IMG/VR virus record: IMGVR_UViG_646311923_000012
Strand: one strand, 5' to 3'
Source of the DNA: a virus
Lineage: Duplodnaviria; Heunggongvirae; Uroviricota; Caudoviricetes
Length of the DNA: 64,000 nt
The position numbers are program-made. Positions 15,001 through 18,000 of this stretch are shown here, one piece after another. The stretch's first letter is position 1; each line of letters opens with the position of its first letter.

Positions 15001-18000
15001 CAATTACAAATTTAATAATAAACATGTTGACCAGTTAAATTTTAATTTGTAAATTGTATCCATAAACCCACCCCGCCCCACAGAACGCAGGGCAATACTT
15101 CGAGTTACCCGGCAGTGGTCAGGGGTTAAGTAGCCAGCCTGAGGCGTATGAACATGACGGCGGGGATTACGTTTAACTATGCAGCAGGTTTTTTGTTCCG
15201 CTACCCCGGCGTTAAGGGGAAACAGAGGATTTCTCAGTGGGCGAAGTCAAACATCAGAATGGAAGGCATCCAGGGATCAGCAAAGAAACAGCGATGGCGC
15301 TTTATATTGATATCAGCGCCATTGCCGGACAGGTAAGAATTATCAGAGCGGTAACTAAGCGGTATGCGCCTTTACTTCAGAAAGTCTCTGGTGAGTGCAC
15401 CGAAGATATTGTCAACGATTTCGTCATCAAACTGCGAGGACTCATCTTCAGTTACAAGGTGACCACAATTTTTGCAGATGGCTCCCGCGAAACTGTCAGA
15501 GCCATGCGGTTTAAAGGATGTGTCAAAGACTTCGCCACCACATTCTGGGCAAGAAAACTTGATTGTATTCATAACCAATTTCCTCTCGAGTAACAGACCC
15601 CTCAGAGGATACCACCTCGCCTGACGTGGTTAAAAGCAGGCAGCGCTAACCACAAGGAGCCGACATGCAGAAACGAGAACCCGTCATCATCGCGCCAGAC
15701 TATACCGATGATGAACTTTATGAGTGGATGCACCAGAAAATTAAGGCAGCGCAGGACCTGAAATGGGCCAATGAAGCCAGGGCTAAGCAGGCTGAAAATC
15801 TGTCCGCTCTGGAGCAGGATATCACCAATCTGGAAAAAGCAGCGGCATTAAGCATTGCCAGAATGATTACATACCCGCGTTAATAGCTAACCAACGAAGC
15901 TAAGGTTGGTAATTAAGGAGTTCTCCACGGGTGAGGTGGAGTGCGTGCGCCGGACACGGGTGAGCATCCGGCACTGACAGTTTACTGAAAGGATATTTCC
16001 CTGAAAAGTCAGACCATAACGCGAAAGCGCACGGCGAGGTAGCTGGTTCATAGATAGCCTGTCGTTAAATTTTCGTCGACCGTGCGCTTCCGGTTGTGGC
16101 AATCCGCGAAATGGCGCGGCGGTAAGTATGGCGGGGTTATTCCTTCCCCAGTTGAGGACACCGGGTTGTCAGGTTGACCATACGCTTAAGTGACAACCCC
16201 GCTGCAACGCCCTCTGTTATCAATTTTCTGGTGACGTTTGGCGGTATCAGTTTTACTCCGTGGCTGCTCTGCCGCCCTTTTTAAAGTGAATTTTGTGATG
16301 CGGTGAATGCGGCTCAGCGCACGCGGAACAGTTAAAACCAAAAACAGTGTTATGGGTGGATTCTCTGTATCCGGCGTTAATTGTTAACTGGTTAACGTCA
16401 CCTGGAGGCACCAGGCACCGCATCACAAAATTCATTGTTGAGGACGCGATAATGGAAACGTTATTACCAAACGTTAATACGTCTGAAGGTTGTTTTGATA
16501 TTGGTGTTCTGCTCAGTAACCGGGAGTTTACTGAAGATGCCATTAATATGAGGAAATATGAGCCTTATCTGCTCAATGATAATTCCATACTTTCCCGAAT
16601 TGCTCTTCTTGAACTTGGTATTTTCGGAGAACGTCAATAACTTCAGCATTTGCACTGATGATGACGGTTTTTCTTATAACGGGTGAATCACAGAATGTGA
16701 TTACCGGAATTTATGCCAGTAAAGAATCCTGCCTCCAGGCAAGAGACGAGCAAAAAATTTCTGGTGAATGCCTCCCGGTAAAAAAAGTATCGCTGTACCT
16801 GAATAACGAAACACCGGCTGGATAACCCTCCAGCCATATTAACACCATACCAACGGATTAAAAATGCCAGCAATGGCAGGGATTCGTTCACCCTGAAATC
16901 TGTAATGAGGTAAAACAAAATGAGTAAAGTCTTTATTTGCGCCGCCATTCCGGACGAACAGGCAATAAAGGAAGAAGGTGCAGTCGCTGTAGCCACTGCC
17001 ATTGAAGCCGGTGATGAACGTCGCGCCCGCGCAAAATTTCACTGGCAATTCCTGGAACATTATCCGGCTGCTCAGGACTGCGCTTATAAATTTCTTGTTT
17101 GCGAGGATAAACCCGGTATTCCCCGCCCTGCCCTCGATTCCTGGGATGCTGAATATATGCAGGAAAACCGCTGGGATGAGGAGTCTGCTTCCTTTGTCCC
17201 GGTTGAGACTGAATCAGATCCGATAAACGTCACTTTTGACAAGCTGGCCCCTGAAGTACAGAACGCTGTCATGGTTAAGTTCGACACATGTGAAAACATC
17301 ACCGTTGATATGGTGATTAGCGCGCAGGAACTGTTGCAGGAAGACATGGCAACATTCGACGGACATATCGTTGAAGCGTTGATGAAAATGCCTGAAATTA
17401 ACGCTATGTATCCGGAACGCAAACTGTTCGCTATCGGATGGGTTAAACACAAATGTAATCCGGGTGCCAAATGGCCCGAAATTCAGGCTGAATTACGTAA
17501 CTGGAAAAAACGGCAGGACGCAGAGCGCAAAGAGACTGGAAAATACACGTCTGTTGTTGATCTCGCCAGCGCCAGAGTCAATCAACAGAACACTGAAAAC
17601 TCAGCAGGAAAAATCAACCCAGTCACTGCCGCCATTTGTCGCGAATACAAGCAGACATGGAAAACGCTGGATGAAGAACTGGCCTACGCTCTCTGGCCTG
17701 GTGATGTGGATGCCGGAAACATTGACGGCAGCATCCATCGCTGGGCAAAAAATGAAGTTATCGACAACGACCGCGAAGACTGGAAGCGTATCTCGGCATC
17801 AATGCGCAAACAGCCTGATGCCCTTCGCTACGACCGCCAGACTATTTTTGGCCTTGTCCGTGAACGTCCGATCGACATTCACAAAGACCCTGTGGCACTG
17901 AACAAATACATTACTGAATACCTGACTACAAAGGGCGTGTTTGAAGATGAAGGAACAAATCAGAGCGCAACTGATACTCTCTCGTCGCCAGTACCAGAAA

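What the first reader, a model, noticed from the sequence alone, without database searches (positions are those of the whole stretch)
15061..15225. ~160-nt leader conserved immediately downstream of PL in both prophages although flanking genes differ (put-like RNA, nut site or sRNA?)
15064-15225 and 62298-62465 are ~90% identical (...CCACAGAAYGCAGGGCAATACTTCGAGTTACC(M)GGCAGTGGTCAGGGGTTAAGTAGCCAGCC...GTTCCGCTACCCCGGCGTTAAGGGGAAA). The repressors (DicA-like versus CI-S24) and downstream genes are unrelated. A 1-nt indel in a T-run shifts the frames of the overlapping ORFs, so conservation is at RNA level rather than protein level. I found no N-like gene in either prophage, so a cis-acting antitermination RNA of the HK022 put type, or a processed sRNA, is a reasonable hypothesis.
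Basis: partly seen in the sequence, partly recalled or inferred. Interest (0 to 1): 0.6.

Follow-up and report, generated by a model that had tools for sequence, protein, structure and literature searches.

The report
Conserved structured RNA heading prophage early-left operons
Both prophages in this window begin their early-left (PL) transcript with the same roughly 95-base folded RNA domain, which is unannotated, occurs in about 70% of complete E. coli genomes (including the K-12 Rac prophage) and in five other genera, and has no known function.

Summary
Window 15064-15225 and 62298-62465 are 86.5% identical, about 92% inside 15071-15222. The flanks drop to 61% and 47%.

The conserved block has two modules:
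- **Core (95 nt):** 15071-15165 and 62305-62399. It starts about 9 nt after the predicted PL start.
- **Second module:** 15181-15222 and 62418-62458.

Homologs in Arsenophonus, Phlomobacter, Symbiopectobacterium, Serratia, Pectobacterium and Superficieibacter show strong compensatory base-pair changes. These support a closing helix P1 and a three-tier hairpin P2. P2 carries a near-invariant 15-nt loop, CAAUACNNCGAGUUA. An almost invariant 35-nt 3' strand follows, UAAGUAGCCAGCCYGAGGC..GAACAUGAMGGC. So conservation is at the RNA level.

The element matches no Rfam family. It is not put, not a nut site, not a known prophage sRNA, and not a conserved ORF. In phages with HK022-like operators it sits exactly where putL sits in HK022. 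In Arsenophonus and Symbiopectobacterium phages it lies upstream of a canonical nutL and an N gene, so it is not simply a substitute for N.

My best guess is a cis-acting 5'-leader domain that secures expression of the long early-left operon, either by protecting elongation (put-like or anti-Rho) or by stabilising the transcript. The fold is shown here. The mechanism is inferred.

The parts
15027..15055 (+). PL-type sigma-70 promoter of prophage A (TTGACC-17-TAAATT). The inferred start is the A of CAT at about 15062.
   Evidence: Promoter scan. The same promoter-to-element spacing, with the -10 ending 11-16 nt before P1, is seen in 16 of 19 homologs from six genera. The start is inferred by analogy with HK022 PL.
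15071..15165 (+). Core structured RNA domain, copy A. P1 pairs 15071-15074 with 15162-15165. P2a pairs 15075-15077 with 15124-15126. P2b pairs 15078-15081 with 15115-15118. P2c pairs 15087-15092 with 15108-15113.
   Evidence: Covariance model R1 scores 69.7 bits, E 5e-17. Helices are supported by compensatory changes in alignment A4.
15093..15107 (+). Apical loop L2 of copy A, CAATACTTCGAGTTA. It is near-invariant across genera (consensus CAAKACNNNGAGTTA).
   Evidence: Alignments A3 and A4. On average 1.07 of 64 E. coli-type sequences vary per column.
15127..15161 (+). Near-invariant 3' strand of copy A: TAAGTAGCCAGCCTGAGGC, GTAT, GAACATGACGGC. It contains GAGG-N9-ATG and an invariant GCC/GGC mini-hairpin.
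   Evidence: When the search did not impose this motif, 155 of 164 occurrences were still exact.
15181..15222 (+). Second leader module, copy A: GCAGCAGGT, T-run, GTTCCGCTA, then the hairpin CCCC-GGCGTTAA-GGGG.
   Evidence: Conserved in E. coli, Serratia, Pectobacterium and Superficieibacter, with a covarying hairpin stem. It occurs without the core in PPompW/DicA-type phages.
62261..62289 (+). PL-type promoter of prophage B (TTGACC-17-TAAACT).
62305..62399 (+). Core structured RNA domain, copy B. P1 pairs 62306-62308 with 62397-62399. The P2 arm is 62309-62360, the L2 loop 62327-62341, and the invariant strand 62361-62395.
   Evidence: R1 scores 68.3 bits, E 1e-16.
62418..62458 (+). Second leader module, copy B, directly before the DUF1391 (YdfA-like) gene that starts at 62470.

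Best explanation
What it is (shown): the two regions are copies of one family of structured RNA domain that forms the 5' end of the early-left (PL) transcript of Rac/Qin/HK022-immunity-type lambdoid prophages. Transcription starts at the A of a CAT motif about 7 nt after the -10 hexamer. P1 begins 5-9 nt later. P1 encloses a long three-tier hairpin (P2a, P2b, P2c) capped by a near-invariant 15-nt loop. A near-invariant, mostly single-stranded segment of about 35 nt follows. A separable second module, a conserved ACGUUCCGCCA-like box plus a short GC hairpin, lies between the core and the first gene. How it most likely works (inferred): the core folds as soon as it leaves RNA polymerase and acts in cis on its own transcript. 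Its invariant loop and 3' strand bind a partner that is conserved from Arsenophonus to E. coli, most plausibly the elongating RNA polymerase or its Nus/Rho accessory factors. This would protect the long, initially untranslated leader and the roughly 8-10 kb left operon from premature (Rho-dependent or intrinsic) termination. That is functionally analogous to HK022 putL, but with an unrelated fold. I put about 0.9 on 'conserved cis-encoded structured leader RNA' and about 0.35 on the elongation-protection mechanism.
For: Structure: in a 24-sequence alignment from six genera, 92.1% of cells in 27 proposed pairs are standard pairs, and 22 pairs show changes on both sides. The covariation score is 0.474, against 0.139 for column shuffles (0/500 reach it) and 0.04-0.06 when partners are slid by 1-3 columns. 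RNAalifold on the same alignment predicts the same four helices. Single-sequence MFE folds of most non-E. coli homologs place the conserved 15-mer in the apical loop of the long hairpin. Within the E. coli type alone, a C-G to U-G to U-A series is seen in P2a. Position: a good sigma-70 promoter ends 11-16 nt before P1 in 16 of 19 homologs. Inserted genes and nutL always lie downstream of the element, never between promoter and element. In Tritos and elppa5 the operators and promoter are HK022-like and the element replaces putL at the same distance from the start. Conserved partner: K and L2 are near-invariant across hosts although neither was imposed by the first search. J3 stays near-invariant when it is not imposed. 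Need for processivity: no N-like protein is encoded in the window. The DicF intrinsic terminator lies inside the copy-A operon, upstream of dicB and the exonuclease gene. In K-12, silencing racR derepresses ydaG through recE, recT, xisR and intR (bioRxiv 10.64898/2026.09.06.749655).
Against: There is no experimental evidence for any activity. The element has no similarity to put in sequence or architecture. It coexists with canonical nutL and N in Arsenophonus and Symbiopectobacterium, so it cannot simply replace N. There is no second copy downstream of PR, whereas HK022 has putR. Few intrinsic terminators are predicted in the left operons, and none on the + strand in K-12 Rac 3650-7150. Related DicA-type phages carry only a simple 5' hairpin in its place, which fits a generic 5'-stabiliser equally well. 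Single-sequence folding energy is no better than shuffles (z about +1). The structural alignment was made by hand and fitted to the structure, and homologs were collected by exact-motif scans, so there is ascertainment bias.
Confidence: 0.35

Rival explanations
1. A 5'-terminal stabiliser, processing or translation-control leader. The compact fold a few nucleotides from the 5' end protects the PL transcript from 5'-end-dependent decay. Alternatively, a ligand- or protein-controlled switch governs a mini-ORF or the downstream RBS.
For: P1 starts only 5-9 nt from the inferred 5' end. PPompW/DicA-type phages have a plain hairpin at the same place, and Symbiopectobacterium adds another 5' hairpin. 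The invariant strand contains GAGG-N9-AUG, always followed by an open frame of 4-77 codons that overlaps the 3' strand of P1. The architecture of a junction with invariant single strands resembles riboswitch aptamers.
Against: A simple stabiliser does not need about 50 invariant unpaired nucleotides. The mini-ORF peptides are unrelated in length and sequence, and codons 2-3 show no synonymous variation. In Arsenophonus the first real gene (N) lies more than 250 nt downstream behind nutL and the N-leader hairpin, so direct translational control is unlikely. No conserved expression platform or terminator follows the core.
Confidence: 0.3
2. A trans-acting regulatory RNA. The 5' fragment of the PL transcript is released by processing and uses the invariant loop or strand as a seed against host or phage RNAs, or as a decoy for a host protein.
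For: It is multi-copy in pathogens: up to 8 places per genome and 7 in an O157:H7 strain. It has long invariant single-stranded stretches. Other prophage regions in this window do encode sRNAs, namely DicF, STnc100 and sok.
Against: There is no terminator or defined 3' end after the core. PL is repressed in lysogens. No complementary target for L2 exists in the window. It is not among the Hfq-bound prophage sRNAs discussed by Tree et al. 2014, which lie near PR' (PMC4104026). It has no Rfam family.
Confidence: 0.1
3. A variant nut site. The second module (box plus hairpin) is a boxA/boxB analogue used by an unrecognised antiterminator protein, with the core as an accessory.
For: Module 2 occupies the position that boxA/boxB takes in Arsenophonus and Symbiopectobacterium. 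Its hairpin stem covaries (CCCC/GGGG, GCCG/CGGC, GCCAG/CUGGC, GCC/GGC). Loops are purine-rich, with GAAAGA in Serratia.
Against: The box ACGTTCCGCCA does not match the boxA consensus CGCTCTT(T)A. There is no second copy near PR. No arginine-rich N-like protein is encoded in the window. Module 2 also occurs without the core, so it says nothing about what the core does.
Confidence: 0.1
4. Protein-coding or DNA-level conservation: a small ORF on either strand, an operator, or a recombination junction.
For: One minus-strand frame is open through the element in 15 of 24 homologs. Annotators have occasionally called hypothetical ORFs over it.
Against: No frame is open in all homologs. The 5' arm varies from 22 to 30 nt between types, in steps that are not multiples of three. 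Substitutions are pair-preserving. The repressors differ, so it is not an operator.
Confidence: 0.03

Closest known systems
HK022 putL/putR antiterminator RNAs
   Same: A cis-encoded structured RNA at the very start of the PL transcript. In phages with HK022-like operators and promoter it occupies the same position as putL. The phages in this window lack N.
   Different: There is no sequence similarity, and the covariance model of the element finds nothing in HK022. put is about 70 nt with two side-by-side stem-loops (PMC9378689). This element is about 95 nt, with a closing helix, one long three-tier hairpin and a long invariant single strand. There is no PR-proximal second copy. It coexists with N/nut in other genera. 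Its activity is untested.
Lambda-type nutL (boxA + boxB) and N leader
   Same: It lies in the PL leader upstream of the first gene. The second module is a conserved box followed by a short hairpin, in the place where nutL lies.
   Different: Neither the core nor module 2 has the boxA consensus. In Arsenophonus and Symbiopectobacterium a genuine nutL (CGCTCTTTAAC plus CGCTGAAAAAGCG-type hairpin) follows the element as a separate feature, and an N gene follows that (Pfam N_peptide, 41 bits).
Prophage-encoded sRNAs of pathogenic E. coli (AgvB, AsxR, Pas sRNAs, DicF, STnc100)
   Same: Multi-copy, prophage-borne and conserved at the RNA level.
   Different: Those sRNAs lie near PR'/Q or inside the dicB operon and have Rfam models. 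None matches here. This element has no terminator of its own.
Riboswitch-like or processive-antitermination leaders (for example EAR)
   Same: A helix-enclosed junction with highly conserved unpaired nucleotides in a 5' leader.
   Different: There is no known ligand, no conserved expression platform, and no Rfam family. The comparison is by architecture only and was not tested.

Membership tests
HK022 put RNA | Encoded immediately downstream of the early promoter, in the nascent transcript | tested here: met
   The -10 hexamer ends 15 nt before P1 in both copies. The element sits in the same place as putL relative to HK022-like operators. Only the PL side is occupied; there is no PR copy.
HK022 put RNA | About 70 nt, two adjacent stem-loops, sequence related to putL/putR | tested here: not met
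   The fold is P1-enclosed with a single long hairpin. Model R1 gives at most 8.8 bits (E>0.1) anywhere in the HK022 immunity region with filters off. The put architecture is taken from PMC9378689.
HK022 put RNA | Factor-independent antitermination and anti-pausing through the beta' zinc-binding domain | not testable with these tools
   Needs in vitro transcription and rpoC mutants.
nut site (N utilisation) | boxA consensus CGCTCTT(T)A | tested here: not met
   boxA is absent from 15062-15235 and 62296-62470. Genuine boxA is seen in Arsenophonus, Symbiopectobacterium and lambda leaders for comparison.
nut site (N utilisation) | boxB hairpin with a purine-rich (GNRA-like) loop | tested here: inconclusive
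   The module 2 hairpin has a short covarying GC stem and 6-9-nt loops: GGCGUUAA here and GAAAGA in Serratia. The loop here is not boxB-like.
nut site (N utilisation) | Cognate arginine-rich N protein encoded in the same phage | tested here: not met
   The first downstream proteins are DUF1391, a zinc ribbon and YdfC. A crude scan for arginine-rich N-termini found no credible candidate in the window.
Any Rfam 15 family (including AgvB, AsxR, C4, IsrK, riboswitches, ribozymes) | Covariance-model match | tested here: not met
   No hit on the element at gathering thresholds. Only two chance snoRNA fragments on the opposite strand at E<10.
Independent trans-acting sRNA gene | Own promoter plus own intrinsic terminator or defined 3' end | tested here: not met
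   A promoter is present, but no terminator-like site follows either copy. The T-run at 15190-15195 has no preceding GC hairpin and is not conserved in K-12, Serratia or pPE4.
Small protein gene | Reading frame conserved across homologs | tested here: not met
   No frame on either strand is open in all 24 homologs. Arm lengths differ in steps that are not multiples of three.

The most novel reading that the evidence does not exclude
The core is a second, structurally unrelated class of factor-independent nascent-RNA modifier of RNA polymerase (antitermination, anti-pausing or anti-Rho). It would be carried by Rac/Qin-type prophages in most E. coli, including K-12, and by lambdoid phages of at least five other enterobacterial genera. 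It would act before, and independently of, N/nut.
Probability: 0.25. Interest if true: 0.85.

Novelty: new variant of a known kind. Interest (0 to 1): 0.62.

Why it matters
Only one family of RNA (put) is known to reprogramme bacterial RNA polymerase by itself, and how N-less Rac/Qin-type prophages express their long, toxic early-left operons (kilR, dicB, recET, xis/int) is not understood. The element studied here is a deeply conserved, covarying and unannotated RNA fold at the very start of those operons. It is present in 3757 of 5426 complete E. coli genomes and in the K-12 Rac prophage. That makes the question directly testable in the standard laboratory strain. Even if it proves to be only a stabiliser or a switch, it would be a new RNA family for Rfam and a useful marker of PL in prophage annotation.

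Tried and rejected
- **Rfam:** no family matched at gathering thresholds or at E<10.
- **Single-sequence thermodynamics:** uninformative, with z about +1.
- **MAFFT alignment of diverse homologs (A3):** it misaligned the 5' arm. I replaced it with a hand-made structural alignment padded with N (A4).
- **Alternative fold:** I tested a GCC-GGC extension of P1 plus a GGCU-AAGU-AGCC hairpin. It was worse: 6-10 unpaired sequences per pair and no compensatory changes.
- **Strand call from wobble pairs:** inconclusive, with 22 G-U against 18 A-C. Strand assignment rests on the promoter.
- **Model R1:** it works for detection, but because of the N padding it aligns the variable stems poorly. I did not use it for large-scale covariation counts.
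- **Antisense partner of the loop:** none in the window.
- **Second copies of either module near PR:** none.
- **Literature:** AgvB, AsxR and the Pas sRNAs lie elsewhere. The mEp021 nut sites are unrelated. Rac/RacR papers and the 'trac' Rho terminator paper do not describe the element. No paper in the library contains the core sequence. King 2011, on put homologues, is not held.
- **Intrinsic terminators in the left operons:** only the DicF terminator and one at 20886-20911 in copy A, and none in K-12 Rac. The argument from a 'need for antitermination' is therefore weak.
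Full report
**1. Observation.** The two stretches are real repeats. A global alignment of 15064-15225 with 62298-62465 gives 86.5% identity (147 of 170 columns, 10 gap columns). The 160 nt upstream are 61% identical and the 160 nt downstream 47%. The sharply conserved block runs from 15071/62305 to 15222/62458. A 19-nt core motif occurs exactly twice in 64 kb even with 3 mismatches allowed, against 0.06 expected. The indels are real: T6 against T5, plus small indels just upstream. 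They put the overlapping ORFs into different frames.

**2. Context in the window.** Each copy follows the prophage repressor gene on the same strand.
- In prophage A the repressor (13849-14247) has HTH_3 only. A higBA module is inserted at 14294-15003 on the minus strand.
- In prophage B the repressor (61538-62176) has HTH_3 plus Peptidase_S24.
- Each copy begins 15 nt after the -10 of a TTGACC-17-TAAAYT promoter.
- Downstream of copy A lie an antisense zinc-ribbon gene, ydfC, DicF RNA (16226-16277, Rfam 75 bits), dicB and an exonuclease VIII gene.
- Downstream of copy B lie a DUF1391/YdfA-like gene and then IS629.

**3. Distribution.**
- blastn finds the element in 3757 of 5426 complete E. 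coli genomes, at up to 8 places per genome and 7 in an O157:H7 strain. Almost all places are unannotated.
- In K-12 derivatives it lies in the Rac prophage between racR and ydaG.
- It is present in 23 deposited phage genomes, always between the repressor and the left operon.
- An exact-motif scan of one genome per species found it in Arsenophonus (many copies), Phlomobacter, Symbiopectobacterium (at least 9 copies in one genome), Serratia, Pectobacterium, Superficieibacter, Escherichia and Shigella. The scan also returned a few chance hits.

**4. Structure.** The divergent homologs keep three sequence blocks:
- a 15-nt block, CAAKACNNNGAGTTA;
- TAAGTAGCCAGCCYGAGGC;
- GAACATGAMGGC.

The sequence between the blocks changes in a pair-preserving way. 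I built a structural alignment of 24 sequences by hand (A4). The proposed fold has four helices: P1, which joins the 5' end to the sequence after GGC, and three tiers P2a, P2b and P2c, which make one long hairpin capped by the 15-mer.

| Measure | Value |
|---|---|
| Cells that are standard pairs | 92.1% |
| Pairs with changes on both sides | 22 of 27 |
| Covariation score | 0.474 |
| Same score, column shuffles | 0.139 (0 of 500 reach the observed value) |
| Same score, partners slid 1-3 columns | 0.04-0.06 |

- RNAalifold on A4 returns the same helices plus an invariant GCC/GGC mini-hairpin.
- Independent MFE folds of most non-E. coli homologs show the same long hairpin.
- A competing fold scored worse and had no compensatory changes.
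- Within 64 E. coli-type variants, substitutions in stems are almost all wobble-compatible or compensated, for example C-G, U-G, U-A at one P2a pair.
- In those 64 variants the loop and the GAACATGAMGGC block are nearly invariant.

Caveats:
- The alignment is fitted to the structure.
- The first scan imposed the 19-mer. A second scan anchored on the other two blocks still found it exact in 155 of 164 cases.
- Wobble counts do not decide the strand. The promoter does.

**5. It is promoter-proximal everywhere.** In 16 of 19 homologs from six genera a good sigma-70 promoter ends 11-16 nt before P1, usually with a CAT(C)AA start motif. In the three Symbiopectobacterium copies an extra hairpin intervenes. 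In Tritos and elppa5 the operators and promoter are clearly HK022-like, and the element starts where putL starts in HK022. The HK022 start and the put architecture come from PMC9378689.

**6. What it is not.**
- There is no Rfam hit.
- A covariance model of the element scores about 69 bits on both window copies, nothing else in the window, and at most 8.8 bits in the HK022 and lambda immunity regions.
- It has no boxA.
- It has no terminator of its own.
- No frame is open in all homologs.
- It has no antisense partner in the window.
- The known EHEC/EPEC prophage sRNAs map elsewhere.

**7. Relation to N/nut.** In Arsenophonus and Symbiopectobacterium the core is followed by a canonical boxA (CGCTCTTTAAC) and a boxB hairpin. 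Then comes a lambda-like long N-leader hairpin and an arginine-rich protein. The Arsenophonus protein matches Pfam N_peptide above threshold. Sometimes an extra gene is inserted between the core and nutL. In E. coli, Serratia, Pectobacterium and Superficieibacter the place of nutL is taken by a second conserved module, GCAGCAGG..ACGTTCCGCCA plus a covarying GC hairpin, and no N is present. That module also occurs without the core in DicA-type PPompW phages, where a plain hairpin sits at the 5' end. The core is therefore an independent, exchangeable 5' module that works alongside N. It is not a replacement for N.

**8. Mechanism.**
- *Shown:* a conserved fold at the extreme 5' end of PL transcripts, with about 50 invariant, mostly unpaired nucleotides.
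- *Inferred:* the invariance across distant hosts points to a conserved host partner. The strict promoter-proximal position points to action during or right after synthesis.
- *First choice (about 0.35):* protection of elongation through the long untranslated leader and left operon, in a put-like or anti-Rho manner. This fits the putL position, the lack of N here, the DicF terminator inside the copy-A operon, and the derepression of the whole Rac left arm when racR is silenced. It also fits coexistence with N, because N itself must first be transcribed through a leader of 250-370 nt.
- *Close second (about 0.3):* a 5' stabiliser or switch, possibly involving the conserved GAGG-N9-AUG mini-ORF. 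The plain hairpin found at the same place in related phages favours this.
- *Less likely:* a processed sRNA, or a variant nut site.

**9. Novelty and verdict.** Within the tools and library available, this RNA family is undescribed. It is best filed as a new variant of a known kind, namely cis-acting structured leaders of lambdoid early operons. Its RNA-level reading is supported. Its specific labels (put, nut, sRNA) are not.

Noticed in passing
window 14294-15003 (- strand): A higB/higA toxin-antitoxin pair is inserted between the DicA-like repressor gene and PL of prophage A, in the opposite orientation. The identical arrangement is annotated in strain E2865.
   Followed up: partly
window 16226-16277 (+): A DicF RNA (Rfam RF00039, 75 bits) with its intrinsic terminator (16260-16275 plus a T-run) lies about 1.1 kb downstream of copy A in the same operon, before dicB.
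   Followed up: partly
window 15372-15578 (- strand): An ECs_2282-family zinc-ribbon gene lies antisense to the PL operon immediately after the copy-A leader. It overlaps a 118-codon GTG ORF on the + strand.
   Followed up: no
window 62787-64000 (- strand): An IS3-family element (IS629-like) carries an ALIL frameshift pseudoknot (63603-63719, 121 bits). It truncates the left operon of prophage B about 320 nt after the leader.
   Followed up: no
window 1294-1466 and 50618-50790; 2239-2487 and 51563-51812; 56107-56281: Rfam finds two STnc100 sRNAs, five tRNA genes (three in prophage A, two in prophage B) and one sok antitoxin RNA in the late or nin regions. The two prophages share long 72-100% identical stretches about 49.3 kb apart.
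   Followed up: no
window 22066-22542: Direct repeat family D1: three overlapping copies of a 195-nt unit spaced 141 nt apart, 95-96% identical to the reference copy.
   Followed up: no
L188 (lambda) 540-583 minus strand, against Arsenophonus loci such as L010: The 33-nt stretch between the lambda PL start and boxA (CATCAGCAGGACGCACTGACCACCATGAAGGTGACGCTCTTAA) shares CATCA, CACTG and CATGAAGG..TGACG with the two ends of the Arsenophonus element. It looks as if lambda retains a remnant with the interior deleted. The covariance model gives only 4.2 bits, which is not significant.
   Followed up: partly
L189 (phage PPompW_132418) 1760-1840: A DicA-type PL leader lacks the core but keeps the CATCAAG start motif, a plain hairpin (ACACCG-CA-CGGTGT) and module 2. 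This shows that the two modules are separable.
   Followed up: partly
L053 about 4560-4650: This is a copy whose 5' half (P1, P2 5' strands and the loop) is replaced by unrelated sequence, while the K-12-like 3' half is intact. It is apparently a deletion or recombination variant.
   Followed up: no
L011, L018, L020 and other loci from the same genome (Symbiopectobacterium purcellii); L008-L046 (Arsenophonus): These insect-symbiont genomes carry many copies (at least 9 in one S. purcellii chromosome). Some are degenerate, for example L022 and L029, which is consistent with many decaying lambdoid prophages.
   Followed up: no
L003 (Actinobacillus phage vB_Apl-pPE4) 2973-3106: A phage deposited as infecting Actinobacillus pleuropneumoniae has a Rac-like immunity and left arm (DicA, YdaT, Kil, exonuclease VIII) and a divergent copy of the element. 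The same variant occurs in several IMG/VR contigs.
   Followed up: no
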